64,000 nucleotides of DNA, taken from the NCBI GenBank assembly GCA_964612665.1, contig CAZTCI010000001.1:380896-444895 (forward strand), given 5' to 3'. Under the pieces are notes generated by a model, which saw only the letters and a list, made by a program, of their open reading frames with translations, was not told where the DNA came from and did no database searches. The position numbers and the translations under genes were made by a program. The DNA comes from an uncultured Planctomycetales bacterium (GTDB lineage: Bacteria > Omnitrophota > Gorgyraeia > Zapsychrales > JAHFFX01). Of this stretch, positions 13,713 through 59,119 are shown piece after piece. Every line of letters begins with the position of its first letter. Position 1 is the stretch's first letter.

Positions 13713-13932
13713 CTTTTTTTAATTCTTTGAGAAGTTGTTCATAGGAGATGGACGATTCCTTACGACGATCGGCAAAGGCTTGAAGATCCTGCTGATCTTC
13801 CAACAATTCATGGCGAATAGCTTCATTGACCAAATCAGAAACGGAGCGGGATGTTTCTGCTGCTTTCAATTTAAGAATTTTATGCAGATGGGGATCGAGA
13901 TAAACAGTGGCGCGTTTAATAGGTTTAATCAT
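13699..13932 (-). CDS. ribbon-helix-helix (CopG/ParD-like) antitoxin
   Basis: 77 aa; ATVYLDPHLHKILKLKAAETSRSVSDLVNEAIRHEL RHH fold signature; upstream of RelE toxin. Confidence 0.75.
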   Translation of the reverse strand: MIKPIKRATVYLDPHLHKILKLKAAETSRSVSDLVNEAIRHELLEDQQDLQAFADRRKESSISYEQLLKELKKDGKI

Positions 13933-14004
13933 GAGGAAACCTCCTTTTGCCCAAGAATAGCAGTACAGCGTTATGACGTCAAGACGTTATTCTTGAGGCA
14001 AACC

Positions 14005-14955: not shown

Positions 14956-14964
14956 GCCTATCTC

Positions 14965-37549: not shown

Positions 37550-38880
37550 TAGCAATCTTTTCAATACTTCCTGCAGGGCTGTTAGTCATTCCTTTACTTT
37601 TTAGAAAAAAAAACCTTTCTTTTCTCTTTGTAATTTTTTTAGCGATCGGATTAGGCTCTGGCATAAACGCCTGCCTGACCTTTTTGGCTTTTTTAATAAG
37701 CGGACAATTCAATCCAAAAATAATTATCGGGTTGTATATCTTTGTAATCGGTTTTTTAATTGTAATGAATGTCTTTTTCCGACGTGATTCTATGCGGGGA
37801 TTCTTCCTTCCGGAATTTTGGAAATTCGATGGCTGGGATTTAGCTTTTATTGGTTCGTTGATAGAATTTGGTTTCCTGGCCTACACCTTTGCTGTTGTTC
37901 AGCATCCTTTTGGAGAATGGGATGGCTGGGCTTTATGGAATATGAAAACAAAATTCCTCATCTTCGGCGGTGAACGGTGGCAAGATATTTTTAAACTGCA
38001 TTGGCACACCCAGCCAGATTATCCGCTTTTACTTCCATTCTTAAACGCCTGGCAATTTGCCGTCGGGCCAGAGAATCTTCAGCAAATTACGCTCAATACC
38101 GGAGTATTATTTACCTTAAGTACCGCCGGGCTGTTGTATACCGGGCTGAGCCGGTTAATTCCAAAGGGAATGGCTTTCTTAACTTTTATTGTTCTGTCGT
38201 CACATTATTCTTATATTTTCCGCGGCACCGCTCAATATGCGGATATTCTTTTAGCCTATTATATTTTGGCCGTGCTCTTAGGAATTAAACTGTCTTTTAA
38301 AGAGAATAGCAAAGAATGGTTAATATTAAGCGGTATCTTCGCCGGATTCATGGCATTTACTAAAAACGAAGGATTAACAATCGCCTTACTTATTATTTTG
38401 ATCTTACTCGCGCTCTCTCTTGCCAAACGTTTTGCAGTCAGCCGTTTGATGATCACGGCTTATCTAACCGGCCTTGTGCCCAGCCTTTTGCCGACGGTGT
38501 TCTTTAAGATTTTCTTGGCGCCCGCAAACCGCGATATTCTTCTTTTCGATCCTCACGCTCACTTAAAATTCTTTAATTTTGAAGGCTGCTATATTATTTT
38601 GTCATCTTTGAACTGGGCTTTGGGTTTAGACGACTGGAAATTTACTTGGCTTTTAATTCTATTTCTAATTCTCTTAAACGCCCGCCAGCTTTATGCAAAC
38701 GAAAATAAACTTCTCACTCTTTTTTTTATCACTTATTTTATAATTATCTTTTTCATTTACTTAACGACCGTGAACTTCGATCTTTCCTGGCGGTTGAACC
38801 GGACATTGCCTAGGATTTTGCTATATGTTTTACCATCGCTTCTATTTTTTAGTTTTACGATGGGTTGGGAGAAAAAATAA
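37546..38880 (+). CDS. polytopic integral membrane protein (GT-C-like?), hypothetical
   Basis: 444 aa, >=11 TM helices; operon with YfhO-like gene. Confidence 0.4.
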   Translation: MIAIFSILPAGLLVIPLLFRKKNLSFLFVIFLAIGLGSGINACLTFLAFLISGQFNPKIIIGLYIFVIGFLIVMNVFFRRDSMRGFFLPEFWKFDGWDLAFIGSLIEFGFLAYTFAVVQHPFGEWDGWALWNMKTKFLIFGGERWQDIFKLHWHTQPDYPLLLPFLNAWQFAVGPENLQQITLNTGVLFTLSTAGLLYTGLSRLIPKGMAFLTFIVLSSHYSYIFRGTAQYADILLAYYILAVLLGIKLSFKENSKEWLILSGIFAGFMAFTKNEGLTIALLIILILLALSLAKRFAVSRLMITAYLTGLVPSLLPTVFFKIFLAPANRDILLFDPHAHLKFFNFEGCYIILSSLNWALGLDDWKFTWLLILFLILLNARQLYANENKLLTLFFITYFIIIFFIYLTTVNFDLSWRLNRTLPRILLYVLPSLLFFSFTMGWEKK

Positions 38881-38883
38881 CTC

Positions 38884-46648: not shown

Positions 46649-49600
46649 TTACGGCGCCTGAATATACCCCTTCAATATTTTCAACAAAGAAGCATTAGGC
46701 AGATGATGTGTTGCCGTATCATATTTCGAAATCTTACGGTTTAAATCATTTAAAGAATCGTTTTGAAAGTCGGCGATGGATTCATCGTCTCCAAAGTGAT
46801 CATACATCCCCCATTCCGACGGATAATCATACATTTTGTATGACCACATCGACCAACTCCAGTTCTGATCATTAAATGTTTTAAGCATCAGATCCCAAAC
46901 GGCCTTGTCACCAAAGCCATTAAATTCACCGACCATGACGGGAACCTGATAAAGCGACTGCTTGGAATAACGTACCTTACCCGACCATTGATCCACCCCA
47001 TCTTGCCCGTCGATCAAATATTTCTGCTCTTCAGCCAAATTCAAAACGCCGATAATCTGGCCGTTTTGATCAAATTTGAATCCGTAATAATGGAATTGAT
47101 ACATAATATTCGTCCATTGAAAAACCGACGGGTTAGGCAACGTGTCCCAATCCTTGTTACTAGGAATTCCTTCCATGACAATAAGGTGTACGGTATCGTT
47201 GGCCCCGCCGCTGGAACCAGGAAGCCGAATCGTCCGATATAACCAATCATATAAACTCCACAGCGCCTGATAACCTTGGCTAATATTCGGATAATATAAC
47301 GGGTCGATGGCCCCGAATGGTTCATTAATTAAATCGTACCCCAACACGACGGTATTCTTTTTATAATGATTCGCAATCGCCCGCCAAAGCTCAGCCGTTC
47401 GTTGACGATAAACTTTATTCGCGGGATTAAAAAGCTGATGATAAAATCCTGCGGACGGACTTTTAGCGGATTGACGGCCCGTATGAAACGACGTGCTCTG
47501 CGATCCCGGCGCGCCGTGCAAATCTAAAAGCACATACATCCCGCGGTCCGCGCACATATCTAAAATCTTATCCACTGCCGAGAAATCATAAAGACCCGGA
47601 ACCCAGCTCCCCTTCGCATTTAAATCACGAATATTACGGTAATATAAAGGAAGCCGGACAAAATTTATTCCCATTCTGAAGAGATTGTTCAAGTCTTCTT
47701 CTTGGATGTAAGTGTTCTGATACGACGTGATCAAACTTTGCATCGAAACATCGCCAAATCTCTGGGACAAAATGCTGCGGATCGTCCAGTCATCCGGAAT
47801 CGACGCTGGCGCCCCGCTTCCTAAAAGCATCCAAGGTTCAAGCAGGAAATAATTTCCCAAGTTGACCCCGCGCAATTTAATGACCGGACCGTTGCCTTGG
47901 TTCTCTCGAAGATCGGTAGCGACGGCTTTAATAAAACCGTTAGGATTATACGCCAATGCCGGACTAAAGTTCGTGGCGTCGATAATCTGTTGATTGGCAT
48001 CAGTCTTAATTCCGCGTACGCGATATGATTTTCCTAACAGCGCCGAAATATTTTTAACCGGTCCCTTGTAAATTTGAACCCACGGCCCGTTTTTGGAATC
48101 GCCGCGCTGGACTTCATAAAGCGTTGTCTGCGGGATTGGAACCAATTGGATAACCCCCTGCTGTAATCTCGCATATTTGATAAGCGCAGGTTTGGGTTGA
48201 TATAAAACAACATCACTCCAATCTGACAGATACGGAACATGCCCATCGCTCGAAGTTGTTTCCCAACGCACACGCAGCGATGCCGGTTGAAGTCGGTTAT
48301 AGTTAAAAAAGTTTTGATGACCCGTATAAACCGTTGTCCATGGACCATCTGACCCAGCCGTACTTTCTTGCAATGTGTAGAACGCTGCCCCGGCGTAGTC
48401 ATTCCATTGAACAACTCCCGTCGGTAAATTGGCCTGATTAATAACCAGCGCAGGTCCTTTGGTCGCACGAATATCATCAAAATAATATGTCCCAGGCCAA
48501 TAGACTTGGAGCTGGATTTTATTTAAATCATCCAAGTTTAAATCCGCCGGCAGCGCGCTCAATGGAACCGATAACTGCGTCCACTGGCCATAATCGGCCG
48601 CCCGTTTTGTCCAGATCGTAAACGGTTCGACATTGTATTTGGGATTGTCCCAATCAAAGAATTGAACATTAACATTATTGGCAAGTCCGTTTTGGGCGAG
48701 CGAATAAACCCAGAACGTCAAGCGGTCATACGGTTTTGGATTTAAAGCTGTCGGATTTAAATCTACGTGCCAGAAATCTTGAAAAGAACAGGCCAATTTC
48801 GAATCGCAGCGGCGTTCTTGAGATTTCATTCCTGTCCCACCCCAAAAATCAAGCGTCTGGAGTTTCCAAGATTGCACGCCTTCATGCGCGAGCGTCGTTT
48901 CCAGATCAATATTACCGTTCCAAGCCCATCCGCAATCGCCTGGATTTCCCGTCGAGCAAGTCCATGGTTCAAACGTTTGATAAACGCGATCGGCGGACTC
49001 AATTTGAATATCATCCAGATAATAATCGCCTGGAAATTCGTTCACAAAATTAATTTTATCAACTGAAGTCCAATCGAAATTATTAGGAAGCTGCGTCAAC
49101 AAAATTGTGATTTGTGTCCATGTTCTAAATTTCGCTTTTTTCGTTGCGAAGACTTCAAAGCCTGAGAAAGCATCGCCTGTGTCTCTATAAATATTTTTAT
49201 CAAAGAATCTCACGCGGACTTCATTATCAGCGGCGTTAGAAGGATCCGCCCAGATCCAAAATGTCAGACGGTCGTTACGGTCGGGCTCAAAGTTGACGTG
49301 ATAAGTTTGAAATTGCGCCGGAATGGTTGTGCCGCCGAAAGAATTATTAGAGTGGACATGCCACGCTTGAACGCCGGCATGCACTTGAGTTGTTGAAAGT
49401 TCCGTGCTCGCGCCGTTTAATCCCCATCCATATTCGGGCGCGCCGCTTGGACTTCCCGGCGGGGGCGGGGTTCCGTTATTTGGTTCGAAATTTTGGTAGA
49501 CATGTCCTAAATTTCCTGCGTTATAAAGCGCGTTGATCTCATTAGACGATAAGACACGATTATAAACGCGTAACTCATCCAACAGCCCGCTAAAAATCTG

Positions 49601-50293
49601 CAGATCCCACGGCCGCTTGCCGATATAAAGATCCCAGCTTGTTTGCGGCGCAATCGTTCCAAAATTTTTCTGATTTCTTAACTGCCCGTCGATATAAACG
49701 CTCGCCCGGCCGTTTGTTCCATCATAAGTCACAACCAGGTGATGCCATTCGTTAAACGGCTGGTCATTGGTGCTGATAACATAGTGGAAGGCATCGCCTT
49801 TGGTATCAATTAAATTGGCGCCGGTTCCCAGATTTTCCCATTGATATCCAATTGTATTTGTCCAGAGATGAACGCCGGAAACTGTTCCGTCGGAATATTC
49901 TAAAAGAGGATTTTGCTGGAAACTAGCTGGTTGGTTTTTGCGGTTGTCGGAAGCGTTATACCAGGTGGCGAGGGTTAAGTTGTTTCCAAGGTTAAGGGAA
50001 GGACTCGCAGGAATTTTAATAAACCCATCCCCTCCGTCGAATTGATAAGCGCCGCCCACGCGTCCACTCGGTGTGTAAGAGACGTGTCCATTGATGATGC
50101 CAGTATTATTGTAACCGCTTAAATCTGTAACGGTCCCATTTGCATTCAGCGCATCGAATGAATAATATAAAACTAACCCATTTGTTGAATCAGCGTGGCA
50201 GGGCCGAACCCCGAATCCGCCTATTAAAAAAACCATACAAAACAAAAACTGCGCGAGTCTCACGATAATTCTTCCCATTCTCTGTATCTCCAT
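46649..50293 (-). CDS. secreted multidomain glycoside hydrolase: LamG-like domain, two CBM-like repeats, two Ig/FN3-like domains, C-terminal GH5
   Basis: 1214 aa; signal peptide; LamG motif region; duplicated ~150-aa domains (YQ.FEP..GW..NG...L.TT..H.GVQ.W...DRLTFW...PG.YY.DDI); GH5 features (VRLPL, LLDLHGAPGSQ, DLINEPFG acid/base, MVGEFNGFG nucleophile region). Confidence 0.8.
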   Translation of the reverse strand: MEIQRMGRIIVRLAQFLFCMVFLIGGFGVRPCHADSTNGLVLYYSFDALNANGTVTDLSGYNNTGIINGHVSYTPSGRVGGAYQFDGGDGFIKIPASPSLNLGNNLTLATWYNASDNRKNQPASFQQNPLLEYSDGTVSGVHLWTNTIGYQWENLGTGANLIDTKGDAFHYVISTNDQPFNEWHHLVVTYDGTNGRASVYIDGQLRNQKNFGTIAPQTSWDLYIGKRPWDLQIFSGLLDELRVYNRVLSSNEINALYNAGNLGHVYQNFEPNNGTPPPPGSPSGAPEYGWGLNGASTELSTTQVHAGVQAWHVHSNNSFGGTTIPAQFQTYHVNFEPDRNDRLTFWIWADPSNAADNEVRVRFFDKNIYRDTGDAFSGFEVFATKKAKFRTWTQITILLTQLPNNFDWTSVDKINFVNEFPGDYYLDDIQIESADRVYQTFEPWTCSTGNPGDCGWAWNGNIDLETTLAHEGVQSWKLQTLDFWGGTGMKSQERRCDSKLACSFQDFWHVDLNPTALNPKPYDRLTFWVYSLAQNGLANNVNVQFFDWDNPKYNVEPFTIWTKRAADYGQWTQLSVPLSALPADLNLDDLNKIQLQVYWPGTYYFDDIRATKGPALVINQANLPTGVVQWNDYAGAAFYTLQESTAGSDGPWTTVYTGHQNFFNYNRLQPASLRVRWETTSSDGHVPYLSDWSDVVLYQPKPALIKYARLQQGVIQLVPIPQTTLYEVQRGDSKNGPWVQIYKGPVKNISALLGKSYRVRGIKTDANQQIIDATNFSPALAYNPNGFIKAVATDLRENQGNGPVIKLRGVNLGNYFLLEPWMLLGSGAPASIPDDWTIRSILSQRFGDVSMQSLITSYQNTYIQEEDLNNLFRMGINFVRLPLYYRNIRDLNAKGSWVPGLYDFSAVDKILDMCADRGMYVLLDLHGAPGSQSTSFHTGRQSAKSPSAGFYHQLFNPANKVYRQRTAELWRAIANHYKKNTVVLGYDLINEPFGAIDPLYYPNISQGYQALWSLYDWLYRTIRLPGSSGGANDTVHLIVMEGIPSNKDWDTLPNPSVFQWTNIMYQFHYYGFKFDQNGQIIGVLNLAEEQKYLIDGQDGVDQWSGKVRYSKQSLYQVPVMVGEFNGFGDKAVWDLMLKTFNDQNWSWSMWSYKMYDYPSEWGMYDHFGDDESIADFQNDSLNDLNRKISKYDTATHHLPNASLLKILKGYIQAP

Positions 50294-50568: not shown

Positions 50569-51969
50569 TTAAAACGTGATTGGGAAACGGACGTCCACCG
50601 TCATGTCTGGAGCATCGGTTGTAAGTCCCATCGAAACACCAAAGTCAAGCGAATGATATTCATCAATGGCCCAGTTAACACCAGTTTTAAAATTAGCAAC
50701 GTTCAGAAATGAACCGCCGACGGAATTATCATTACGAACCATCTTGGTCGTTATACTTTGATCAAATGAAAAAGTAATAGCAGTTTGATAACTCAACGCA
50801 ATCGCTGTTCCGACGCTATAACCAAGCGTGTCGCCGGGTTTAACATCACCAAAATTTTCAATATCTTGCCGGGCAAAATTATAGGTATAGCTTAAACTTC
50901 CAAAAATAACCGCCGGGTCGCTCGATTTAGCCGCAATAAGTGAACCGCGCAAACCCCAATGTCCGGTGCCTAACCCAATATCATGGTTATATGGTTCGCG
51001 TCCCGTCGGAGGTTTAACACTAAAGTTTGCGACCAAATCCGGCATTAAACCATGCTCCCAACCGATCTGCCGGCTTACACCAAATTCAATATCACCCAAC
51101 CCTTGTGTACCGCGTGTGGTTTCAGCGGTGGTTGACGTTAAAACAGTACGATCAAATTCACCGCGGTAAGGAATCTTTAACTCAGTTTGGAAATTATCAA
51201 AGAGCCCGTATTTTGCCGATAGTGTTTCAATAAAGACATCTCTCTTAATTTTTTGCACGTCAATATCTCCGACGACCAAAACAGGCAGAATACTGAAACC
51301 TTGGATGCTGATTGTGTTGGCCGATGAATGCGCATAAGTAAAACTCGGTTCAACCTGCATTTTCCCCTTGCCTAGCAGAATACTTCCTCTTTGCTGTAAG
51401 GTCCGTTCCAAGGATTCGGTCCGTTCAGTGGTACCTCCGGCCACATCCAAGTCCTTGTCATCCTTTTTAACGGCTTTACCGGGTCTCCTGTCTTTAACTG
51501 GCGACTTCGACATGCCAGGACCCACTTGTAGTCCGGGCTCGACATCGCCACTGGCAGCATATTGATCCAAATCCTGATCAAGCAACTGTCTTCGCTGCTT
51601 TTCTTTGTCGAGAATTTCTAAAACAATTTGATGGACGGCGGTTTGTAAATCTTCGTTATTAGTTTTTGATAAGAAATCAGACGGGGGGGATTGCGGTTGG
51701 GCAATTTTTTGCACAGATGGTATTTCTGCAATTTTTGTTGAAGCATCGGAACCGTGTTTGATTTGGGCCTTCACTAACTGAGGAATTTCTTGTAAAACTT
51801 CGTTGCGGACTTCTTCTTTTAATTCTTGTTTAATTTGGCTTCTCAATCTTTCAGTGAGCTCTTTATAATTTTTTTCCTGCGCTTCTTTGTTCCAGCGCAC
51901 CAAAAGAACAGCCGTTAAAATGCCAATACTTACAGTAAGCAATAAACTCTTTAATTGAGGATTTTTCAT
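50569..51969 (-). CDS. outer-membrane beta-barrel protein with N-terminal coiled coil (FapF-like secretion pore candidate)
   Basis: 466 aa; N-terminal signal/anchor, heptad coiled coil (res 30-75), Pro/Gln/Asp-rich linker, ~270-aa C-terminal alternating-hydrophobic beta-strands ending ...VRFPITF (C-terminal Phe). Confidence 0.6.
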   Translation of the reverse strand: MKNPQLKSLLLTVSIGILTAVLLVRWNKEAQEKNYKELTERLRSQIKQELKEEVRNEVLQEIPQLVKAQIKHGSDASTKIAEIPSVQKIAQPQSPPSDFLSKTNNEDLQTAVHQIVLEILDKEKQRRQLLDQDLDQYAASGDVEPGLQVGPGMSKSPVKDRRPGKAVKKDDKDLDVAGGTTERTESLERTLQQRGSILLGKGKMQVEPSFTYAHSSANTISIQGFSILPVLVVGDIDVQKIKRDVFIETLSAKYGLFDNFQTELKIPYRGEFDRTVLTSTTAETTRGTQGLGDIEFGVSRQIGWEHGLMPDLVANFSVKPPTGREPYNHDIGLGTGHWGLRGSLIAAKSSDPAVIFGSLSYTYNFARQDIENFGDVKPGDTLGYSVGTAIALSYQTAITFSFDQSITTKMVRNDNSVGGSFLNVANFKTGVNWAIDEYHSLDFGVSMGLTTDAPDMTVDVRFPITF

Positions 51970-51995: not shown

Positions 51996-52079
51996 GACTT
52001 TTGCATTGCAAAAGTCTAGTACTAGGCCTTTTCTCTCGGAGAATGATAGAACAACCTTATCTTTGGGAGAGAAAAGGCC
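51996..52079 (-). mobile_element. MITE/REP-like structured repeat, copy 2 (inverted relative to 24623-24705)
   Basis: 84 bp; reverse complement ~92% identical to 24623-24705; intergenic between OM barrel gene start and C39 peptidase gene stop. Confidence 0.7.
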
Positions 52080-52088: not shown

Positions 52089-52799
52089 TTAAAATTCACC
52101 CGTATGAATCGTCGTACTGATTACATCGGGAGTCATTATGCTACGCATTAATTTATAATCAACTGAAACAAAATCTTTTTCTGCAATCTTTAAAGCATAA
52201 TCACTATTTTTGTCTTCATGAGGTTTTTCAACCAATAATCCGATGCCATCCAGCCATAAATCTTGAAACTTATTAATTTTCATCGAGACATTACCGACGG
52301 CAGGGTCAGCGATAAAAACACGGTCAGCCATCACAGCTTTTACAATAACAAAATGGCGGTAATTCCTAAATTTAATGGGAACTAAAACCGGTTTATGCAG
52401 ATGGCGCAAAAAATCAATGTCCATCTTATAACCTGTCACATTATAACCTTTTTGTTTTGCATAAGTTTTTAAATCAAATAAAGAGAATCCCCGGCGTTCT
52501 TTAATTTTTGCTAACGGCACAACTTGCAGAAGTGAATTAATAATCTCACCTTCCGAAACTGGATCATTGAGATAATAATTTAACAGCGTTGAAAGTCCAG
52601 CAGCACCACAACTAAAATCCAGACTTTGCGTAACGATGTTTGTGCGTCGGATGTCGCGCAAGGGTTTGATGTCTTTGTTAATCCGGATTCCGAATGAAGA
52701 AAAACTAATAGCCCAACTAGAAGATGGAATTAAAGGAATTAGAAAAAGACTGAAAAGCAGGAAGAAATTTTTATGGGCCTTTGTGAAGCTACTATACAT
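52089..52799 (-). CDS. standalone periplasmic papain-like C39-family cysteine peptidase (FapD-like)
   Basis: 236 aa; signal peptide; catalytic Cys context DFSCGAAGLSTLLNYY, downstream His/Asp region typical of peptidase C39/C39-like. Confidence 0.7.
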   Translation of the reverse strand: MYSSFTKAHKNFFLLFSLFLIPLIPSSSWAISFSSFGIRINKDIKPLRDIRRTNIVTQSLDFSCGAAGLSTLLNYYLNDPVSEGEIINSLLQVVPLAKIKERRGFSLFDLKTYAKQKGYNVTGYKMDIDFLRHLHKPVLVPIKFRNYRHFVIVKAVMADRVFIADPAVGNVSMKINKFQDLWLDGIGLLVEKPHEDKNSDYALKIAEKDFVSVDYKLMRSIMTPDVISTTIHTGEF

Positions 52800-52918: not shown

Positions 52919-53971
52919 TTAAGGCTGAATTTGGAAGATAGAATAGTTACTCAGTTTAAGATCGTTTGAATTGTTTACATTACCAACTGTTGAATTCATC
53001 AATACCGTTAAATTGATCTGCACAGGTACAATGCTTCCAGCAGCATTGATATTAACAAAGGCGCTCAATTGTTGCTGCGCCGTATCGGTAACATTGACTG
53101 AGTTGATGCCGCCGCCCGTTGTTGAGAACGGTATCGGAATAACGTTATTGCCGCCACTATTAGCGACAGCAACTTTAAAATTACCTCCATGATTTGCAGC
53201 TAACACATCCAAAACATATGGCGAAGTTATGGCTGCCGGTGAAGTCGGCGTTGTCGGAGCGGCTGTCTGAGTGGGTACTGTTACATTAATGTTATTAGAT
53301 GGCGCCACTTGATTTGAAGTCGCTCCCGCTGCGTCGGCAGGTAAGGCAGAATTGGCCGCGACAACATTGGCTTGTGACGCTTGAGATGAAGCTGCATTTT
53401 GAGCAATTGATCCTGCTCCTCCTAATGGAGCACCAGAAGCTAATGATGAATCGGGAATATTTGTTGTTTCAGGTTTCATAATCCCAACTGTCTCGACGGG
53501 AGTAATAGGCACTTCAGGGCCTACGGTTACCGAAGGTGTCGCATGTGCAGAAAGTGGATTTTCTACATCTGTCAAGCTACTAGCTAAACTAGATGAGGGC
53601 AGTGAAGATCCAGCTGATGATGCTGATGACGCGTTAGATGGTGCTACTATATTTGTTGTATCGGCTCCGGCTGGGGATTTTGGAGACGTCGGCGTAGATA
53701 AGGACACTTTGACATTGGGATTATTAGTGTTCACTAAAAATGGATTGTTTTGAGTACCGAGTGTTACAGGACCTTTGGTAACACTATCCGCACTAGTACC
53801 CACCGAGCCAAGATAACTATCAAAATTAAAATTTAATCCTCCCGCGTGAATCTGGTCTAATTCATAATCGGAAAGAATAATAGCTTGACCCGCAAAAGCA
53901 TAAGAAATTTGAGATAACATAAGAACTGCGGTAAATCCTAAAGAAAATTTCTTTGACGCCATTTTTCTCAC
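52919..53971 (-). CDS. secreted Ala/Ser/Thr/Pro/Asn-rich protein with post-signal double-glycine-like motif (candidate fibre/amyloid subunit)
   Basis: 350 aa; Sec signal peptide (..ISYAFA|GQ), then ILSDYELDQIHAGG|LNF; C-terminal FVNINAAGSIVPVQINLTV motif related to paralogs. Confidence 0.6.
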   Translation of the reverse strand: MRKMASKKFSLGFTAVLMLSQISYAFAGQAIILSDYELDQIHAGGLNFNFDSYLGSVGTSADSVTKGPVTLGTQNNPFLVNTNNPNVKVSLSTPTSPKSPAGADTTNIVAPSNASSASSAGSSLPSSSLASSLTDVENPLSAHATPSVTVGPEVPITPVETVGIMKPETTNIPDSSLASGAPLGGAGSIAQNAASSQASQANVVAANSALPADAAGATSNQVAPSNNINVTVPTQTAAPTTPTSPAAITSPYVLDVLAANHGGNFKVAVANSGGNNVIPIPFSTTGGGINSVNVTDTAQQQLSAFVNINAAGSIVPVQINLTVLMNSTVGNVNNSNDLKLSNYSIFQIQP

Positions 53972-54028: not shown

Positions 54029-54058
54029 AGTGGTGGGAGGAAAAATCCTCCCACCACT
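54029..54058 (-). terminator. intra-operon perfect hairpin between large repeat-protein gene and next subunit gene
   Basis: agtggtgggagg-aaaaat-cctcccaccact (12-bp stem). Confidence 0.5.
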
Positions 54059-54077: not shown

Positions 54078-56639
54078 TTACAAACCGCCGTTTACCACTG
54101 TGGCCACGTTGGTCTGGCTAACATTGCCGCTGATACTGCTTGAATTGGCAACGTTAGTTTGGATCGCAACAGCTGAACCAACAGCGTTTAAGTTGCTAAC
54201 TGCTTGGATCGTCGCCTGAGATCCACCAGTGACGTAAAGCTTGTTCTTCACAGCTTTCGTCTTGGTTTCTTTCAGACTGATATCAGCGGTCTCGGTATTA
54301 GTTTTAGTCTTTGAGACTTCCTTGATCTCGCTTTGATCCACAGTTTCTTTGTTTGAGTGAGATGAAGCACTTGCATCAGAACTTGAGGCGTCTTTTGAAG
54401 CTGCAGCTGACGCACTCTCGGCTGAAGAAGATGACGCTGAAGAATCATGAGATGAAGCTGATTGAGCAGCAGATGAACTTGCCGCTGTGCTTGAGCTGCT
54501 TGAGTCACCAGAAGCTGATGCTGAAGCAGTTGCATCCTTAGAAGCCTTCAACGTTGCATTCAATGTTTTATCATCTGCCGACGCTGAATTGCTGGCTGAC
54601 GAGCTGCCTTGTGCGGCTTTACTCGAAGAACCTGCGCTAGAATCGGTAGATGCTTTGTCGCTATCTGAAGCAGCTGAACTGCTGGCGGCTTCTTTATCTT
54701 TTGAAGCAGCTAAATGCGCATCCAAAGTAGCACTATCGGATGATTTAGCTGAATCAGATGATGAAGCGGCACTTGAAGAAGCTGCATTAGCTTGTTCAGC
54801 ACTGCTATCTGAAGCTTTAGCATTGCCTGAAGCTGATGAATCTTTAGCTGCGCTTAAGCTGGCATCAACATTGGCGTTGTGTGACGATGACGCCGCTGAT
54901 GAACCAGAAGCACCGCTTGCAGAAGATGCGCTGGCTTGTTCAGCACTGCTATCTGAAGCTTTACCATTGCTTGAAGCTGATGCATCTTTGGAAGCGCTTA
55001 AGTTTGCATTGAGGTTGGCATTATCAGATGATGAAGCTCCTGACGATGCTGAACTTTCATTGCTGCTACCACTACTAGCTGAAGCTTGGTTGCTTCCGGT
55101 TGCGGCAGCTGAACTGCTGGCAGCATCGCTGTTTGTTGAAGCAGCGTTTTTATCTTTAGTTGCGGTATTTGTTGTTGCTGTACCTTCTCCCGTGGATGAT
55201 CCACTGCTTGTTGATGAATCCTGGGTAGAGGCACCACCACCTGATGAGCTCTGATTCGTGCTCGTACCCGTCGCGGCGCTACCAGTTCCCTCTAATGAAG
55301 TGGAACTTGAGGTCTTTGACGAATTTGATTGAGCCGTATCATTGCTTGTGGAAGCAGCGGCATCTGAGCTGCTGGACGTGCTACCACTTGAACTTGAAGC
55401 GGCATCAGCTGATTTGCTGGCTGAAGCATCGCCAGAAGCAGCAGATGAATTCTTTGAAGCTGTCAAACTAGCATCCAGTTTACCTGAATCATTAGCTTGA
55501 GCATTTGATTCTGAAGCCGCATCATGTGATGACGCAGCGCTTGAAGTCGAAGAATCGCTTGATGCACTTTGTGCACCGCTATTCTTGGCTGATGACTTAC
55601 CAGCAGATAAGCTAGCATCCAAGCTGGCTTTATCACTTGATTGTGAAGCTGATTCTGAACCAGCATCATGTGATGAAGCGGCGCTTGAATTTGAAGAATC
55701 GCTGGCTTGAGCAGCAGAAGCGCTTTCGCCTGATGCGTTCTTCGTAGCAGACAAGCTGCCATCGACAGCCGCTTTATCTGAAGAAGAATCACCTGAGCCT
55801 GAAGCCGCATCATGTGATGAAGCGGTACCGGCTGCGGCTGATTCAGCTGATTCAGATGATGAGCTTTCAGCAGCAGAAGCACTGCTTTGTGAAGAAACGC
55901 TTGAAGTAGCACTTAAACTAGCATCAATGGCAGCATGATCACCACTTTCTGATCCCGCAGCTGAAGAAGCAGCGTCAGCAGATGATTGTGAAGCTTGATC
56001 AGAAGCTGAAGCTGAATCACCAGATTTATCACTGCTGGTAGCCGCTTGGCTAGCAGAAGCTGAGAAGCTAACCGCTTCTTTTGAAGCTTCGGCTGATGAG
56101 CTTGCCGCTGAATCAGTCGTTTCAGTGGTAGTCACATTCTTATCAGTGTTTGTAATCGTTTTATTTGACGACGATGAATCGCTGTAATGAACTGTCAGAT
56201 CTTTGCTATCAACAACGTTTTTGTTGGTGACGTTAGCTTCATTGCTCTGCGTTAAATCAACAGCGCCTTCAGTCGCGTTCGAAACGTTGGTCTGGACGGC
56301 AACAGCGCTGTCAACGGCATTCGCGTTGCTAACGGCTTTCAGTTCAGCCTGCGCTTGACTGTCGATGACCATTTTATTTTTCTTGGTAGCATCAGCTTTA
56401 TAGCCACCTTGGCTATCTGCAGCAGCATCGCCGCCATCACTATTTTTTGCTAAAACCCACTCGCCGGCGGCAATTTCATCCATTTGCTTATCGGAAAGAG
56501 CAACACCTTCAGCAGCAGAAGCTGACGAGATGCGAAAAGCAAGCGGATAAACCGCAAACATGAGCGTTAATAATAAGATACTGATTTTTCTCGAATTCAT
56601 GACTATTACCTCTATTTGTTGAATGATGGTTAGTAACAC
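54078..56639 (-). CDS. very large secreted Ser/Ala/Asp-rich tandem-repeat protein with GG-leader-like N-terminal motif and duplicated NAVxSAVAxQTNV end motifs (candidate fibre/adhesin)
   Basis: 853 aa; signal peptide; ALSDKQMDEIAAGEW; >=8 repeats carrying [LV][DN]A[SHT]L[STK]A[SGAT]K at ~40-aa period; motif AELKAVSNANAVDSAVAVQTNV near N-term and ATIQAVSNLNAVGSAVAIQTNV near C-term. Confidence 0.65.
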   Translation of the reverse strand: MLLTIIQQIEVIVMNSRKISILLLTLMFAVYPLAFRISSASAAEGVALSDKQMDEIAAGEWVLAKNSDGGDAAADSQGGYKADATKKNKMVIDSQAQAELKAVSNANAVDSAVAVQTNVSNATEGAVDLTQSNEANVTNKNVVDSKDLTVHYSDSSSSNKTITNTDKNVTTTETTDSAASSSAEASKEAVSFSASASQAATSSDKSGDSASASDQASQSSADAASSAAGSESGDHAAIDASLSATSSVSSQSSASAAESSSSESAESAAAGTASSHDAASGSGDSSSDKAAVDGSLSATKNASGESASAAQASDSSNSSAASSHDAGSESASQSSDKASLDASLSAGKSSAKNSGAQSASSDSSTSSAASSHDAASESNAQANDSGKLDASLTASKNSSAASGDASASKSADAASSSSGSTSSSSDAAASTSNDTAQSNSSKTSSSTSLEGTGSAATGTSTNQSSSGGGASTQDSSTSSGSSTGEGTATTNTATKDKNAASTNSDAASSSAAATGSNQASASSGSSNESSASSGASSSDNANLNANLSASKDASASSNGKASDSSAEQASASSASGASGSSAASSSHNANVDASLSAAKDSSASGNAKASDSSAEQANAASSSAASSSDSAKSSDSATLDAHLAASKDKEAASSSAASDSDKASTDSSAGSSSKAAQGSSSASNSASADDKTLNATLKASKDATASASASGDSSSSSTAASSSAAQSASSHDSSASSSSAESASAAASKDASSSDASASSHSNKETVDQSEIKEVSKTKTNTETADISLKETKTKAVKNKLYVTGGSQATIQAVSNLNAVGSAVAIQTNVANSSSISGNVSQTNVATVVNGGL

Positions 56640-57030: not shown

Positions 57031-57867
57031 TTATTCCCATCTTTTTTTTGTTTTCACTGCGACTTTTCTTTTTTCCGGCTTACTGCGGTATTCTGCAGGA
57101 GACACTCCCTGAAACTTCTTGAAAACTTTACTAAAATAACCTGGATCCTCAAATCCACAAGAATACGAGACCTGGCTGACCGAAAGACTCTTATCCCGAA
57201 GCAATCGAGAGGCTACCGTAATTCTGCGATTATTAAGAAAATTAGAAAACGTCGTCTTAAGTTCTTTGGTAAAAAGATGACTCAAATAATAGTAGCTTAC
57301 ATTATTCTGTTCAGAGACTGAAGCTAAGGAAAGCTCAGGAATGTGGTAATTACTATTAAGGAACTGAATGACTTTAAAGAGAATCTTTTTTTGGTGAGTG
57401 ACTTCCTTGCCTTTAAAATCATCTAAAAATTTAAAATCATGACTGACGAGCCGGTTAATTGTTTCTTCCAGAAATTGGCACATCGATTCCAGCTGGCTTT
57501 TATTCAATCGAAGCTGGGTATTCTCGCCGCTGTAAAGGTAACCGATGACGCTTTCTTGAAAAACAATGGGAACCAAAATTTTGATAAATCCTTCTGGGCA
57601 GGCAAAAGTCACTGGCTTGAGCGTTCGGGTGGCTTGCTCTATATAGAGAGGAAGAATGGTTAGGTTATTGGCGGTTTTATAGGCACTTCTAATATTACGG
57701 TGCAAAATACGTTCTTCAGCAATCTCATTTTTCAAAAAAAATGGGATCGGATTTCCCTGTTCATCTAGCAGGTCAAGATCGATCCCATTAAACTTGCGTA
57801 AAAATTCATGAACAATAGATAATGCTTTTGAATCCTTAAGATACTCCATAACAATTGCGGCTGACAT
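57031..57867 (-). CDS. AraC/XylS-family transcriptional regulator
   Basis: 278 aa; C-terminal dual HTH (RITVASRLLRDKSLSVSQVSYSCGFEDPGYFSKVFKKFQGVSPAEYR). Confidence 0.85.
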   Translation of the reverse strand: MSAAIVMEYLKDSKALSIVHEFLRKFNGIDLDLLDEQGNPIPFFLKNEIAEERILHRNIRSAYKTANNLTILPLYIEQATRTLKPVTFACPEGFIKILVPIVFQESVIGYLYSGENTQLRLNKSQLESMCQFLEETINRLVSHDFKFLDDFKGKEVTHQKKILFKVIQFLNSNYHIPELSLASVSEQNNVSYYYLSHLFTKELKTTFSNFLNNRRITVASRLLRDKSLSVSQVSYSCGFEDPGYFSKVFKKFQGVSPAEYRSKPEKRKVAVKTKKRWE

Positions 57868-58134: not shown

Positions 58135-59049
58135 TTAGGAAAGTCTCATCTTAAATTTGATGATGCTCTCTCGGATGGAAGTTGATTTTTGATTGGATTG
58201 AATTGTGGCGGCAGACTGGGGCGTTTCGGGCTGGTATTTTTTCGATTGAAGAATTTTTTCTAAATTTGAGGTAAGCGATTCCAAAGGTTTTTCGTAGCCA
58301 AAACTAAACAACGTGTTAATAATGCGCAGGAATTCTAAAATGTATTTAATGGCGTTTTCTAAATTGACGACAACCCCGATATCGGAAGGTAACGGTGAGA
58401 AGATAATATGTTTATCGTCCTGAACCATATATTCATTGTCACCCAAAATACTTGGATGCGAAAAACGCGAACACAGTCTAAAAGTGATTTCGTATTCCTC
58501 TAATAAATTTTTGTCCACTTGTTTGGCCATGTCACGAATCGCTTTTCCAGACCAGGTAACCAGCGCCTGATCGGAGATGATATGAAATTCTTTTTTAAAT
58601 TCATCGACCTTGTCTAAAATCATTTTTTTTCTTTTAAGAAAATTATTCTTTTCATCCGGTGAAGCCGATTCTATTTGTTTTTCCTGCTCGGCCAAATGGC
58701 GTTTAAAAACCACCCACTTATAAGCGACGAAACGTTTAGCCAGATTATTGGCAGATTGTTTGTCGTGGATGATGTATTTTGTGGTGACGAGATTTTCAAA
58801 AAGGGATCTTAACAGGGTTGAAACATCTTGGCCGTAGCCTTGTTCACACAAAATAAGAATTGAGGCGTATGTTTTGATCGAGCGGCTCACGACGAAAAGA
58901 AAGATGCGTTGATAGGCAGGCAAGTCAAAAAGCCGTAACTCGCGTTTGTTAAATTCTTCTAAAAGCGAACGGCCGCAATCATCAACGCTGTGGGCGAGAT
59001 CGAAAAGTTTTTTGTTATTTTGTTGGAGGGATTGGGAGAAGTTGGTCAT
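58135..59049 (-). CDS. hypothetical protein (likely start MTNFSQS)
   Basis: ~305 aa; no recognised domain; track ORF over-extended through GC hairpin. Confidence 0.4.
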   Translation of the reverse strand: MTNFSQSLQQNNKKLFDLAHSVDDCGRSLLEEFNKRELRLFDLPAYQRIFLFVVSRSIKTYASILILCEQGYGQDVSTLLRSLFENLVTTKYIIHDKQSANNLAKRFVAYKWVVFKRHLAEQEKQIESASPDEKNNFLKRKKMILDKVDEFKKEFHIISDQALVTWSGKAIRDMAKQVDKNLLEEYEITFRLCSRFSHPSILGDNEYMVQDDKHIIFSPLPSDIGVVVNLENAIKYILEFLRIINTLFSFGYEKPLESLTSNLEKILQSKKYQPETPQSAATIQSNQKSTSIRESIIKFKMRLS

Positions 59050-59069
59050 AATTTTGATTAATAGATGCG

Positions 59070-59119
59070 TGGGCGTTGGGCGGCCGGCAACGACGCAGCG
59101 CCGCCGGCCGCCCAACGCC
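59070..59119 (-). terminator. 17-bp GC hairpin downstream of pgi
   Basis: gggcgttgggcggccgg-N16-ccggccgcccaacgccc. Confidence 0.55.

What the first reader, a model, noticed from the sequence alone, without database searches (positions are those of the whole stretch)
54300..56100. 853-aa protein core is a Ser/Ala/Asp tandem-repeat array (>=8 units of ~40 aa with LDASLSA.K core), also repetitive at the DNA level
The gene interior is almost entirely S/A/D/K/G with a periodic conserved nonamer ([LV][DN]A[SHT]L[STK]A[SGAT]K). Such arrays are prone to repeat-number variation and to mis-assembly. Spurious long antisense and off-frame ORFs (e.g. 54487-55254 +, 55463-55912 -) are a by-product. The array could act as a stalk/spacer of a surface fibre or as a heavily O-glycosylated mucin-like region. 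Several GT-C-like membrane glycosyltransferase candidates are encoded elsewhere in the window.
Basis: seen in the sequence. Interest (0 to 1): 0.6.

Follow-up and report, generated by a model that had tools for sequence, protein, structure and literature searches.

The report
Mirror-symmetric Ser/Ala array in Fap-like fibre subunit
The serine/alanine-rich repeat block is real; it is the greatly expanded middle of a secreted fibre-type protein of an uncultured Omnitrophota bacterium, and its two halves always match in mirror order, which suggests they zip together into one very long hairpin.

Summary
The gene is real: 54078-56600, minus strand, 840 aa from the ATG. It carries eight [LIV][DN][AG]xLxA motifs. 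The period is 48 aa, not ~40. The units form two blocks of four with palindromic spacing (54,48,48 | 48,48,54) around a unique GGG.

DNA-level repetition is weak, with a longest exact repeat of 30 nt. A second assembly gives the identical sequence, so mis-assembly is unlikely here. Orthologous contigs, however, often break in this region.

The protein belongs to a small, unannotated family found almost only in Omnitrophota. Members have a Sec signal, an LSDxEMDEIAAG double-glycine-type leader, Q/N-rich repeat R1, a linker and repeat R2. The operon continues with a FapE-like protein, a periplasmic C39 peptidase (FapD/FilB-like) and a FapF-like outer-membrane channel.

Typical members are about 300 aa, and AlphaFold2 models their linker as one long β-hairpin. 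In six long orthologues the two arms are equal in length. In the five that carry tandem arrays, period, copy number and mirror order also match.

Best reading: a Fap-like secreted fibre subunit whose hairpin was lengthened by matched duplications in both arms. A glycosylated disordered spacer is not excluded.

The parts
54078..56600 (-). Gene for the 840-aa two-repeat subunit (853 aa if read from GTG 56639); stop codon 54078-54080.
   Evidence: ORF. GAGG 8 nt before the ATG at 56600. Called as 840 aa on an independent contig with 2523/2523 nt identical. N- and C-termini conserved in homologues.
56514..56600 (-). Predicted Sec signal peptide (aa 1-29, MNSRKISILLLTLMFAVYPLAFRISSASA).
   Evidence: Read from the sequence: basic N-terminus, hydrophobic core, SASA. 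Same layout in all homologues. No signal-peptide predictor was available.
56463..56498 (-). Double-glycine-type leader motif LSDKQMDEIAAG (aa 35-46), followed by EW.
   Evidence: A relaxed pattern hits only twice in all six frames of the 64-kb window: here and in the next gene. A-G-[DE]-W is nearly invariant in 74 homologues. It matches the classical LSxxELxxIxGG leader consensus (own knowledge; C39 GG/GA specificity is cited in PMC5557850).
56223..56375 (-). Q/N-rich repeat unit R1 (aa 76-126; SQAQAELKAVSNANAVDSAVAVQTNVSN...).
   Evidence: Conserved block in alignments A1-A5. Beta strands in both AF2 models. Profile comparison R1 vs R2: probability 99.1%, E 2e-18.
56145..56207 (-). Base strand 1 of the predicted hairpin (aa 132-152).
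   Evidence: In the AF2 model of the window protein, strand E132-152 lies in blocks with pLDDT about 88-90.
55443..56036 (-). Arm 1: four 48-aa S/A/D units (A1-A4, aa 189-386), each ending in IDASLSA / VDGSLSA / LDASLSA / LDASLTA.
55122..55442 (-). Central non-repeated S/T/G segment (aa 387-493). The mirror centre falls on the only GGG of the protein (aa 454-456, 55233-55241).
   Evidence: Mirror sums of 909-911 give a centre at 454.5-455.5.
54528..55121 (-). Arm 2: four 48-aa S/A/D units (B1-B4, aa 494-691), each ending in LNANLSA / VDASLSA / LDAHLAA / LNATLKA.
   Evidence: TRF array 54772-55034.
54264..54329 (-). Base strand 2 of the predicted hairpin (aa 758-779).
   Evidence: In the AF2 model of the window protein, strand E758-779 has pLDDT about 87-89. 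132+779 and 152+758 give 910-911, the same register as the arm motifs.
54081..54242 (-). Q/N-rich repeat unit R2 and C-terminus (aa 787-840; SQATIQAVSNLNAVGSAVAIQTNV...ATVVNGGL).
54030..54057 (-). GC-rich 13-bp stem-loop just after the stop codon, before the next gene.
   Evidence: Free energy -29 kcal/mol, z -5.5. An equivalent hairpin follows the orthologous gene in L005, L006, L007, L009, L012, L013 and L021.
52919..53962 (-). Second substrate-like gene (347 aa from ATG; 350 aa from GTG 53971). Layout: signal peptide, ILSDYELDQIHAGG leader, LNFNFD block, P/S/T/A-rich linker, C-terminal R-like unit. Layout resembles FapE.
   Evidence: Profile comparison of R2 against this family's C-terminus: 91%, E 1e-6. 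FapE layout is described in PMC5557850.
52089..52799 (-). Periplasmic C39 cysteine peptidase (236 aa) with a signal peptide.
   Evidence: Pfam Peptidase_C39 1.2e-21. NCBIfam FilB 1.4e-40 and FapD 2.1e-31, both below curated cut-offs. The alignment to PCAT1 keeps the QxxxxxC, H and D positions.
50569..51969 (-). FapF-like outer-membrane channel (466 aa): N-terminal hydrophobic segment, charged coiled-coil-like stretch, linker with the leader-like LLDQDLDQYAASG (51547-51585), then the barrel.
   Evidence: NCBIfam FapF 8e-43, below cut-off. PDB FapF 5o65, E 3.7e-30 over aa 190-466. Sequence. The linker motif is conserved in orthologues.
57031..57867 (-). AraC/PocR-type regulator upstream, present beside the cassette in most orthologous loci.
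58135..59115 (-). DUF5677 protein with no signal peptide, found upstream of the cassette in nearly every locus that extends far enough.

Best explanation
The array is the hyper-expanded inter-repeat linker of a two-repeat secreted subunit. That subunit belongs to a Fap-like export cassette in an Omnitrophota genome.

Proposed pathway:
1. The protein crosses the inner membrane by Sec.
2. The periplasmic C39 peptidase recognises the LSDKQMDEIAAG leader and probably cuts after AG46.
3. The unfolded chain leaves through the FapF-type outer-membrane channel.
4. Outside, the homologous Q/N-rich units R1 and R2 come together as a head. By analogy with FapC and CsgA, and with relatives carrying 12-18 such units, the head can stack into a fibre.
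5. The linker folds back on itself, so arm 1 (units A1-A4) runs antiparallel to arm 2 (units B4-B1).
6. The LDASLSA motifs pair Leu-to-Leu as rungs every 48 residues. Flanking Asp/Lys form cross-arm salt bridges, and the GGG at aa 454-456 is the turn.

The array therefore sets the length of a hairpin-like blade or bristle. Evolution lengthens it in whole units by matched tandem duplications in both arms.

Shown: the gene, the repeats, the family, the operon, and the equal-arm mirror constraint.
Inferred: cleavage, the export route, the beta conformation of the arms, and fibre formation.
For: Operon and family:
- C39 and FapF homologues lie directly downstream.
- The order DUF5677 - (AraC) - subunit(s) - FapE-like - C39 - FapF-like recurs, wholly or nearly, in the complete related loci.
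- The leader motif occurs only on the two substrate-like proteins of the window.
- R1 and R2 are homologous.
- Relatives with 18 and 12 tandem R units sit next to a C39 gene.

Hairpin:
- The AF2 model of a typical 304-aa member (74-sequence alignment) gives strands 114-177 and 182-245 with pLDDT 87-95.
- The AF2 model of the window protein gives confident strands 132-152 and 758-779 that flank the array.
- In the short class, arm lengths co-vary in steps of 6: 47/50, 53/56, 59/62, 63/66, 65/68. Spearman 0.79.
- In the long class, the two arrays match in period, copy number and mirror order: window 54,48,48|48,48,54; L009 5x48|5x48; L005 3.1x48|3.0x48; L006 5.0x36|4.9x36 with different unit sequences; L007 54-then-46|46-then-54. 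Permutation gives p = 0.003 (L007) and 0.0095 (L006).
- Mirror centres fall on GGG, DADP, EGGD, APDP and CTDC.
- The best charge-complementary register lies within 2 residues of the hydrophobic mirror register in 4 of 5 proteins.
- The midpoint between the conserved R1-end and R2-start residues sits 1-4.5 residues from the mirror centre in all six long proteins (sum offsets of 2-9). The offset in the AF2 hairpin of the short protein is 2.5 residues (sum offset 5).

Major-subunit signal:
- A conserved strong hairpin follows the gene.
Against: - AF2 gives the array itself pLDDT 31-44 and no secondary structure.
- The arms are very polar, with 23 hydrophobic residues in about 600, and show only weak period-2 alternation. 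They may be flexible between rungs.
- The subunit has no detectable sequence similarity to FapB, FapC, FapE or curlin.
- Foldseek finds no solved fold with E < 1e-3.
- Mirror order in the window itself is weak evidence on its own, with permutation p = 0.33.
- The sequences compared are related, so the indel statistics are not independent counts.
- The leader ends in AG rather than GG and sits behind a Sec signal, an arrangement not documented for C39 substrates.
- No experiment exists for any member.
Confidence: 0.6

Rival explanations
1. The array is an intrinsically disordered, possibly O-glycosylated, mucin-like spacer or 'fuzzy coat' around a fibre core, like the long L2 linkers of FapC. 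It has no defined pairing between its halves.
For: - The composition is extreme S/A/D/T/K/G.
- AF2 pLDDT is 31-44 with no secondary structure.
- FapC linkers vary from about 30 to 260 aa and are described as flexible coats (PMC12392863).
- GT-C-like genes exist in the window (PMT_2-like 37546-38880, YfhO 38884-41244).
- One orthologous locus has a YfhO-like stretch 2 kb from the cassette.
Against: - A free spacer does not need equal arms, mirrored periods and copy numbers, turn-formers at the exact midpoint, charge complementarity in the same register, or compensatory 6-residue indels.
- The GT-C genes are not syntenic with the cassette in the other loci.
- A chain glycosylated in the periplasm would have to pass a narrow FapF-type pore. 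This is an inference from the FapF structure paper.
Confidence: 0.25
2. The long hairpins of several subunits assemble side by side into a beta-barrel tube or pore stem, as in anthrax protective antigen, aerolysin or phage phi29 tail proteins. The product would be a nanotube or membrane-inserting device for host contact, not a stacked fibre.
For: - The nearest Foldseek neighbours of the short-homologue model are all long-hairpin barrel formers.
- In the 300-aa class the tip is hydrophobic and amphipathic, with IAAAAAFA...VAVATFLLDYDK around a CxxC turn.
- Omnitrophota are proposed to be host-dependent (PMC10066038).
Against: - None of those matches is significant: E >= 1.1e-3 and TM <= 0.20.
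- The tip of the window protein is polar S/T/G, not hydrophobic.
- The R units and the FapD/FapF machinery point to Fap-type fibres.
Confidence: 0.1
3. The array is an assembly artefact, either collapsed, expanded or chimeric repeats, so its unit count is meaningless.
For: Seven orthologous contigs end inside the linker and one scaffold has an N-gap there. One Logan contig of this same organism starts at 54281, just downstream of the array.
Against: - A different assembler (Logan, run SRR12313478) gives the identical sequence over 6744 bp, including the whole gene.
- The longest exact repeat is 30 nt and units are 37-67% identical in register.
- The reading frame stays open for 2.5 kb between conserved termini.
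- The two arms come out exactly equal, which a random collapse would not produce.
- Both assemblies may rest on the same or sister read sets, so long reads are still desirable.
Confidence: 0.03

Closest known systems
Pseudomonas Fap functional-amyloid system (FapA-F), especially FapC with its variable L2 linker
   Same: - A periplasmic C39 peptidase (FapD-like) and a FapF-type channel with an N-terminal coiled coil are encoded directly after the secreted subunits.
- The subunits carry imperfect Q/N-rich repeats separated by a linker whose length varies greatly between relatives.
- A second protein has the FapE layout: conserved N-terminus, disordered linker, Q/N-rich C-terminus.
   Different: - No sequence similarity to FapA, FapB, FapC or FapE was found.
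- There are two repeats, not three, and the repeat motif is different.
- The linker is up to about 900 aa and under an equal-arm constraint.
- The substrates carry a canonical double-glycine-type leader, which Fap proteins lack.
- The FapD and FapF scores are far below NCBIfam equivalog cut-offs (109 vs 330; 147 vs 700).
- The host phylum is Omnitrophota.
Double-glycine leader peptides processed by C39 domains of PCAT ABC exporters (class II bacteriocins, microcins)
   Same: The motif LSDxE[LM]Dx[IV]xAG fits the LSxxELxxIxGG consensus. The peptidase keeps the Gln/Cys/His/Asp positions of PCAT1.
   Different: Here the leader follows a Sec signal peptide. The peptidase is a free periplasmic protein. 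The cassette has no ABC transporter. The cargo is a 200-1000-aa structural protein. The last two residues are AG rather than GG.
Acinetobacter Fil cluster proteins FilB and FilC (NCBIfam 'putative pilus system')
   Same: The best NCBIfam hit of the peptidase is FilB (1.4e-40), and FilC also hits the channel (3.3e-15).
   Different: Both scores are far below the cut-offs. Other Fil components were not examined here, and no paper on Fil was retrievable.
Curli CsgA and other beta-solenoid repeat amyloids
   Same: The R units are tandem, imperfect and Q/N/S-rich. Their number varies from 2 to 18 among relatives.
   Different: There is no curlin-repeat match, no CsgG/E/F-type export genes in the cassette, and the units are longer (about 50-65 aa).
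Serine-rich repeat glycoproteins and mucin-like domains
   Same: The Ser/Ala-dominated low-complexity composition is similar.
   Different: The protein has no LPXTG anchor, since the C-terminus is repeat R2. No glycosyltransferase or accessory-Sec genes lie in the cassette. The only weak hit, ser_rich_anae_1 at E 0.17, is not significant.
Antiparallel coiled-coil arms of SMC/Rad50-type proteins (own knowledge; conceptual analogue only)
   Same: Two distant segments of one chain must stay equal in length because they pair antiparallel, so insertions appear in matched pairs.
   Different: Those arms are alpha-helical and intracellular. Here the arms are Ser/Ala-rich, predicted beta or flexible, extracellular, and grow by tandem-repeat duplication.

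Membership tests
Fap (functional amyloid of Pseudomonas) system | FapF-type outer-membrane barrel with a periplasmic coiled coil | tested here: met
   PDB FapF 5o65, E 3.7e-30 over aa 190-466. NCBIfam FapF, E 8e-43 but 146.8 bits against a cut-off of 700. A charged heptad-like N-terminal stretch is visible in the sequence. This is a homologue, not an equivalog.
Fap (functional amyloid of Pseudomonas) system | Periplasmic, catalytically competent C39 peptidase (FapD) | tested here: met
   Pfam C39 1.2e-21. NCBIfam FapD 2.1e-31, at 109 bits against a cut-off of 330. A signal-peptide-like N-terminus is present. The Q/C/H/D positions are kept in the alignment to PCAT1.
Fap (functional amyloid of Pseudomonas) system | Subunits built from FapB/FapC-type repeats | tested here: not met
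   No Pfam or NCBIfam family was found at E <= 10 for the termini of the 840-aa protein or for the 350-aa protein. None was found at E <= 1 for relatives with 12-18 repeats.
Fap (functional amyloid of Pseudomonas) system | FapA and FapE accessory proteins | tested here: inconclusive
   No sequence match was found. The 347-aa protein has the layout reported for FapE, but homology is not shown.
Fap (functional amyloid of Pseudomonas) system | Product is a cross-beta (amyloid) fibre | not testable with these tools
   There are only AF2 beta-strand predictions for R1 and R2. Fibre diffraction, ThT binding or cryo-EM is needed.
Double-glycine leader / C39 substrates | Leader with conserved hydrophobic positions and a small-residue pair at the cleavage site (LSxxELxxIxGG) | tested here: met
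   LSDKQMDEIAAG and LSDYELDQIHAGG are the only two hits in the window. AG[DE]W is nearly invariant in 74 homologues.
Double-glycine leader / C39 substrates | Leader at the extreme N-terminus and export by a peptidase-containing ABC transporter | tested here: not met
   The motif follows a Sec-type signal peptide. No ABC transporter is present among the cassette genes in the window or in the related loci.
Double-glycine leader / C39 substrates | Cleavage after the GG/GA pair by the cognate peptidase | not testable with these tools
   This needs N-terminal mapping of the mature protein with and without the C39 active-site Cys.
Serine-rich repeat glycoproteins / mucin-like domains | Dedicated glycosyltransferases and accessory export genes beside the substrate; cell-wall anchor | tested here: not met
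   None lies in the cassette. The GT-C-like genes are 9-13 kb away and not syntenic elsewhere. The C-terminus is repeat R2.
Curli (CsgA) | Curlin repeats and CsgG/E/F export | tested here: not met
   No curlin match was found. The export genes present are C39 plus FapF-like.

The most novel reading that the evidence does not exclude
This would be a previously undescribed class of bacterial extracellular fibre subunit with three features:
1. Export follows a Sec, then periplasmic C39 double-glycine leader cleavage, then FapF-type pore route. The same leader-like motif also sits on the transporter's periplasmic linker.
2. The body is a giant, length-tunable beta-hairpin of up to about 300-450 residues per arm.
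3. Evolution lengthens the body by compensatory tandem-repeat duplications in both arms, giving silk-like Ser/Ala ribbons or bristles on ultra-small Omnitrophota cells.
Probability: 0.4. Interest if true: 0.8.

Novelty: new variant of a known kind. Interest (0 to 1): 0.65.

Why it matters
1. FapD's target. In Pseudomonas Fap the target of the essential periplasmic C39 peptidase FapD was still unknown in the 2017-2018 papers read here, and later papers retrieved name none. Fap proteins lack a canonical leader. In this Omnitrophota relative every putative substrate carries a textbook double-glycine-type leader right after its Sec signal. A similar motif sits in the transporter's periplasmic linker. 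This gives a concrete cleavage or docking site that can be tested by mutagenesis.

2. Matched repeat growth. The mirror-matched repeat expansions are an unusually clean natural experiment. Two distant tandem arrays in one gene keep the same period, copy number and order across species, as if each duplication in one arm had to be compensated in the other. If the arms pair as a beta ribbon, this is a modular way to set fibre width or bristle length in about 16-nm steps, which is of interest for protein materials.

3. Biology of the phylum. The result assigns a likely surface-structure role to a conserved, wholly unannotated gene cassette in a phylum known only from metagenomes.

4. Practical point. 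These genes are systematically broken in short-read assemblies, so their diversity is under-sampled.

Tried and rejected
- Pfam and NCBIfam scans gave nothing usable. This covers the whole protein, its termini, the 350-aa neighbour and multi-repeat relatives.
- A sequence search of the PDB with a short homologue gave only noise, E > 1.
- Tandem Repeats Finder sees only 1.8 copies of one 144-nt unit. Plain DNA-repeat tools therefore understate the structure, and the protein-level motif and lag analysis was needed.
- Block duplication of arm 1 into arm 2 was considered as the cause of equal copy numbers and rejected. The order of unequal units is mirrored, not direct, in L007, L006 and the window. 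Unit sequences also differ between arms.
- A DNA inverted duplication was rejected because both arms encode the motif in the same orientation on the same strand.
- The glycosyltransferase link was checked and not supported by synteny.
- Exact-sequence look-ups gave no source names. Taxonomy was instead taken from adenylosuccinate lyase homologues.
- Literature searches found no description of this cassette. Terms tried: Omnitrophota plus amyloid, DUF5677, FilA/B/C, and periplasmic C39 plus double-glycine.
- My first regex for the leader missed the 840-aa protein because position -3 was defined too narrowly. This was corrected.
- The regex anchors for arm lengths were usable in only 49 of 74 short homologues, and two of those are evident mis-anchors.


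Full report
**What is there**

A single open reading frame on the minus strand runs from 56639 (GTG) or 56600 (ATG) to the stop at 54078-54080. I take the ATG as the start, giving 840 aa, for three reasons:
- A GAGG lies 8 nt upstream.
- All homologues begin at the equivalent Met-Lys/Arg-rich signal peptide.
- The gene caller on an independent contig reports 840 aa.

The 853-aa reading contains 250 Ser, 179 Ala and 61 Asp, one Pro, one Trp and no Cys. Self-identity peaks at a lag of 48 residues: 0.327 against 0.215 +/- 0.017 in shuffles, z 6.8. The DNA peak is at 144 nt. So the periodicity is real, but the unit is 48 aa rather than about 40.

**Layout of the array**

The units are not one run. 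In 840-aa numbering the motifs start at 225, 279, 327, 375 and 530, 578, 626, 680. That is four units (aa 189-386), a 107-aa non-repeated Ser/Thr/Gly segment, then four more units (aa 494-691). The spacings read 54, 48, 48, (155), 48, 48, 54, which is a palindrome.

**DNA level and assembly**

Repetition in the DNA is modest.
- In-register units are 37-67% identical, and the longest exact repeat in the gene is 30 nt.
- Tandem Repeats Finder reports only 1.8 copies at 81%.
- A Logan contig assembled from run SRR12313478 is 100% identical to the window over 6744 bp, including all 2523 bp of the gene.

A collapsed or chimeric assembly is therefore unlikely here. Long reads would still settle it, because the two assemblies may share reads.

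In relatives with younger, more similar units the region does defeat assemblers. Contigs L002, L003, L010, L011, L019, L020 and L022 end inside the linker. L008 has an N-gap there. The 1.63-Mb contig L007 carries the intact 1055-aa version of that same gene.

**Genomic context**

The gene is the first of four co-directional genes. No terminator-like site was detected between them on the coding strand.
1. The 840-aa protein.
2. A 347/350-aa protein (52919-53962/53971).
3. A 236-aa C39 peptidase with a signal-peptide-like N-terminus (52089-52799).
4. A 466-aa outer-membrane protein (50569-51969).

The peptidase matches Pfam Peptidase_C39 (1.2e-21). It also matches the NCBIfam models FilB (1.4e-40) and FapD (2.1e-31). 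The membrane protein matches NCBIfam FapF (8e-43) and FilC (3e-15). All these NCBIfam scores are far below the curated equivalog cut-offs.

Against solved structures, residues 190-466 of the membrane protein align with the FapF barrel (5o65, E 3.7e-30). The peptidase aligns with PCAT1 and keeps the Gln, Cys, His and Asp positions of the active site. The N-terminal part of the FapF-like protein has a hydrophobic segment and then a charged heptad-like stretch, as described for FapF's periplasmic coiled coil (PMC5557850).

Upstream lie an AraC/PocR-type regulator and a DUF5677 protein.

The adenylosuccinate lyase of the window is 81-91% identical to proteins that, wherever named, come from Candidatus Omnitrophota. 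The window therefore belongs to that phylum.

**The protein family**

Neither the 840-aa protein nor its neighbour matches any Pfam or NCBIfam model, even at E = 10 on the non-repetitive termini.

Homology searches recover a small family.
- The first search gave 8 proteins and a profile search gave 83.
- Only 97 cluster representatives appear among 1.84 billion in an exhaustive HMM search.
- Where named, members are 'hypothetical protein' from Omnitrophota.

Genome and metagenome scans gave 9 and 15 loci. Seven are Omnitrophota MAGs and two are MAGs labelled Planctomycetia/-ales.

All members share one plan:
- a signal peptide;
- the motif L-[ST]-D-x-E-[LM]-D-x-[IV]-x-A-G followed by [DE]-W;
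- a Q/N-rich unit R1 (SQxEIxAVSNANAVDSAVAVQTN...);
- a linker;
- a second unit R2 (SQxxIQAVSNLNAVGSxAAVQTN...ATVxNG[LFY]) that ends the protein.

R1 and R2 are homologous (hhalign 99.1%, E 2e-18).

Most members are 300-325 aa and a few are 217-225 aa. The window protein belongs to a subgroup in which the linker has grown enormously: L021 660 aa, L005 750, window 840, L009 914, L006 985, L007 1055.

Two further relatives sit side by side in L017 next to a C39 gene. They carry 18 and 12 tandem R units (1283 and 1000 aa). This shows that R is a stackable imperfect repeat of the curli/Fap kind, although it matches no described repeat family.

Gene order is conserved in the loci long enough to show it. 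It runs DUF5677, sometimes AraC, one or two subunit genes, the 347-aa-type gene, C39, then FapF-like. L013 begins too close to the cassette to show the DUF5677 position.

**The leader motif**

LSDKQMDEIAAG (aa 35-46) and LSDYELDQIHAGG in the neighbouring protein fit the classical double-glycine leader consensus LSxxELxxIxGG recognised by C39 peptidases.

A relaxed pattern finds these two sites and nothing else in all six frames of the 64-kb window. In the related loci it marks the same two protein families and the multi-repeat proteins. A-G-[DE]-W is nearly invariant across 74 homologues.

The same kind of motif is conserved in the periplasmic linker of the FapF-like protein, between the coiled-coil-like part and the barrel. 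Examples are ISDEELDMIVAG and VSDEELDKIVAAGG. The window has the weaker LLDQDLDQYAASG.

This matters for the Pseudomonas system. [quoted passage not shown] FapE and the FapF linker were proposed as candidates (PMC5557850; PMC6173800). The 2018 review also noted co-localised fapD-fapF pairs in five other phyla without describing their substrates.

The 347-aa protein has the layout reported for FapE: a conserved N-terminus, a hypervariable Pro/Thr/Ala-rich linker giving proteins of 180-609 aa overall, and a Q/N-rich C-terminus. Its C-terminal unit is related to R2 (hhalign 91%, E 1e-6).

**What the array is: evidence from the short class**

An AlphaFold2 model of a typical 304-aa member, built on a 74-sequence alignment, has mean pLDDT 76.6.
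- The whole linker is one antiparallel hairpin, with strands 114-177 and 182-245 at pLDDT 87-95.
- The turn sits at a conserved C-x-x-C tip.
- R1 and R2 form four strands each at the base.

Independently of the model, the two arm lengths co-vary in steps of six residues across the family. The pairs are 47/50, 53/56, 59/62, 63/66 and 65/68, with Spearman 0.79 in the 49 sequences where my anchors worked.

**What the array is: evidence from the long class**

AlphaFold2 on the window protein is uninformative for the array itself, which gets pLDDT 31-44 and no secondary structure. It does place two confident strands, 132-152 and 758-779 (pLDDT about 88-90), on either side of it.

The comparative evidence is stronger. 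In each of the five long orthologues that carry tandem arrays, the linker holds two arrays that match in period, copy number and mirror order:

| Protein | Arm 1 | Arm 2 |
|---|---|---|
| L005 | 3.1 x 48 aa | 3.0 x 48 aa |
| L006 | 5.0 x 36 aa | 4.9 x 36 aa (different unit sequence) |
| L009 | 5 x 48 aa | 5 x 48 aa |
| L007 | period 54 then 46 | period 46 then 54 |
| window | 54, 48, 48 | 48, 48, 54 |

Further points support a mirror arrangement:
- Among all orderings of the arm-2 spacings, the mirror order is among the best 0.3% for L007 and 1% for L006. It is uninformative for L009 and weak for the window alone (p = 0.33).
- The centre of mirror symmetry falls on turn-forming residues. These are the only GGG of the window protein (aa 454-456), DADP in L009, EGGD in L006, APDP in L007, and the CTDC tip of L021, which has rung motifs but no tandem arrays.
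- Counting opposite-charge pairs gives an independent signal. The best antiparallel register lies within two residues of the best hydrophobic register in four of five proteins. For the window these are S = 911 (z about 4) and S = 909.
- In the S = 909 register L375 faces L534, L379 faces L530 and K383 faces D526.
- The positions of the conserved residue ending R1 and the one starting R2 add up to the mirror sum minus 2-9 in all six long proteins. The offset is 5 in the AlphaFold hairpin of the short protein.

So the two arms are equal to within a few residues while their length ranges from about 125 to about 450 residues. The AF2 base strands of the window protein (132+779, 152+758) lie in the same register, 910-911.

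A simple duplication of one block into the other would give direct order, not mirror order. It would also not keep copy numbers equal under the unequal crossing-over that homogenises each arm. Selection for matched arms is the economical explanation.

**How it most likely works**

The steps below are inferred unless a call is cited.
1. The precursor is exported by Sec.
2. The periplasmic C39 peptidase binds the leader and probably cuts after Ala-Gly46.
3. The unfolded chain passes the FapF-type pore.
4. Outside, R1 and R2 meet and the two arms zip antiparallel.
5. The LDASLSA motifs act as Leu-Leu rungs every 48 residues, about 16 nm if the arms are fully extended.
6. The Ser/Ala-rich rails between rungs are either beta, as in silk-like Ala/Ser sheets, or flexible.
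7. Heads stack into a fibre as in FapC or CsgA, so the hairpins form lateral blades or bristles whose length is set by the number of unit pairs.

A 13-bp GC-rich stem-loop (-29 kcal/mol, z -5.5) directly follows the gene. Equivalent hairpins follow the orthologous genes in seven other loci. This fits a major structural subunit made in excess over the downstream genes.

**Rivals**

- Disordered, possibly glycosylated spacer. This fits the composition, the low pLDDT and the FapC precedent of variable linkers acting as soft coats (PMC12392863). It does not explain the equal-arm, mirror-order, midpoint-turn and charge-register observations. They are 9-13 kb away and are not linked to the cassette elsewhere, apart from one YfhO-like stretch in L005.
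- Barrel- or pore-forming assembly. The only Foldseek neighbours are phage tail tubes and the pores of anthrax PA, CDTb, aerolysin and lysenin. None is significant (E >= 1.1e-3, TM <= 0.2). The tip of the window protein is polar.
- Assembly artefact. This is addressed above.

**Novelty**

I found no description of this cassette, of the R unit or of the leader arrangement. Pfam and NCBIfam hold nothing. The papers I could search also hold nothing, including two broad Omnitrophota genome studies.

The machinery clearly belongs to the known FapD/FapF kind. The substrate does not qualify as FapB/FapC, because that defining feature was tested and not met. I therefore rate it a new variant of a known kind. 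Two features would interest specialists: a canonical C39 leader behind a Sec signal, and mirror-matched repeat expansion.

Noticed in passing
window 51547-51585 (-), inside the FapF-like gene; also L005 about 14444, L006 about 15132, and L007, L009, L013: The periplasmic linker of the FapF-like channel carries a leader-like motif of the same type as the substrates, between the coiled-coil-like part and the barrel. The window has LLDQDLDQYAASG, and the orthologues have ISDEELDMIVAG, VSDEELDKIVAAGG and LSDKELDQVVG. This hints that the C39 peptidase docks on or cuts the transporter itself, as was speculated for FapF.
   Followed up: partly
window 54030-54057 (-); L005, L006, L007, L009, L012, L013 and L021 just after the subunit gene: A strong GC-rich stem-loop (13 bp, -29 kcal/mol, z -5.5), without a clear U-tail, follows the subunit gene in the window. 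Equivalent hairpins follow it in seven related loci. It is probably an attenuator or mRNA-stabilising element that raises subunit expression over the downstream genes.
   Followed up: partly
window about 52020-52078 (between the C39 and FapF-like genes): A 13-bp inverted repeat (GGCCTTTTCTCTC ... GAGAGAAAAGGCC) has a 29-nt loop. All three Logan contigs of this organism end at the same base (about 52056), inside that loop. The reason is unknown; it could be strain variation or an assembler artefact.
   Followed up: no
window 58135-59115 (-); also L001-L003 and L005-L012: A cytoplasmic DUF5677 protein is encoded just upstream of the cassette in nearly every locus that reaches that far. Its role is unknown, and no useful literature was found.
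   Followed up: partly
L017 (GCA_030765235.1, JAVCCW010000029.1) 8001-15042, and 1-6795: Two adjacent proteins of 1283 and 1000 aa carry 18 and 12 tandem R units and the same N-terminal leader. They are followed by a 130-aa ORF, a C39 peptidase and a short Phenol_MetA_deg (FapF-superfamily) ORF. An ORF of more than 4154 aa lies just upstream.
   Followed up: partly
P0009 about aa 176-181; L021 aa 358-361; many sequences of alignment A4: The predicted hairpin tip of the short-class proteins is a conserved C-x-x-C (ETEC-KD-CETE; CTDC in L021), flanked by hydrophobic or amphipathic strands (IAAAAAFA / VAVATFLLDYDK). FapC also has a conserved CxxC outside its core. The window protein has lost both the cysteines and the hydrophobic tip.
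   Followed up: no
window 52919-53962 (-), and its homologues in L005-L013: The second substrate-like protein has its own hypervariable low-complexity linker, here Pro/Ser/Thr/Ala-rich. Its homologues range from 180 to 609 aa overall. In L006, L007 and L009 the linker is built of short (S/T/A)P(x)(x) repeats.
   Followed up: partly
window 46649-50293 (-): A 1214-aa protein with a Laminin_G_3 (concanavalin-like) domain and a GH5 cellulase domain lies directly downstream of the FapF-like gene on the same strand. It is not found beside the cassette in the other loci.
   Followed up: partly
window 37546-41244 (+) and 33811-35871 (-): A PMT_2-like membrane protein (25.9 bits against a cut-off of 26.1) is followed by a YfhO-family protein. 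Nearby is a 686-aa multi-pass membrane protein with C-terminal TPR repeats. They sit next to a polyprenyl synthetase gene (32702-33814).
   Followed up: partly
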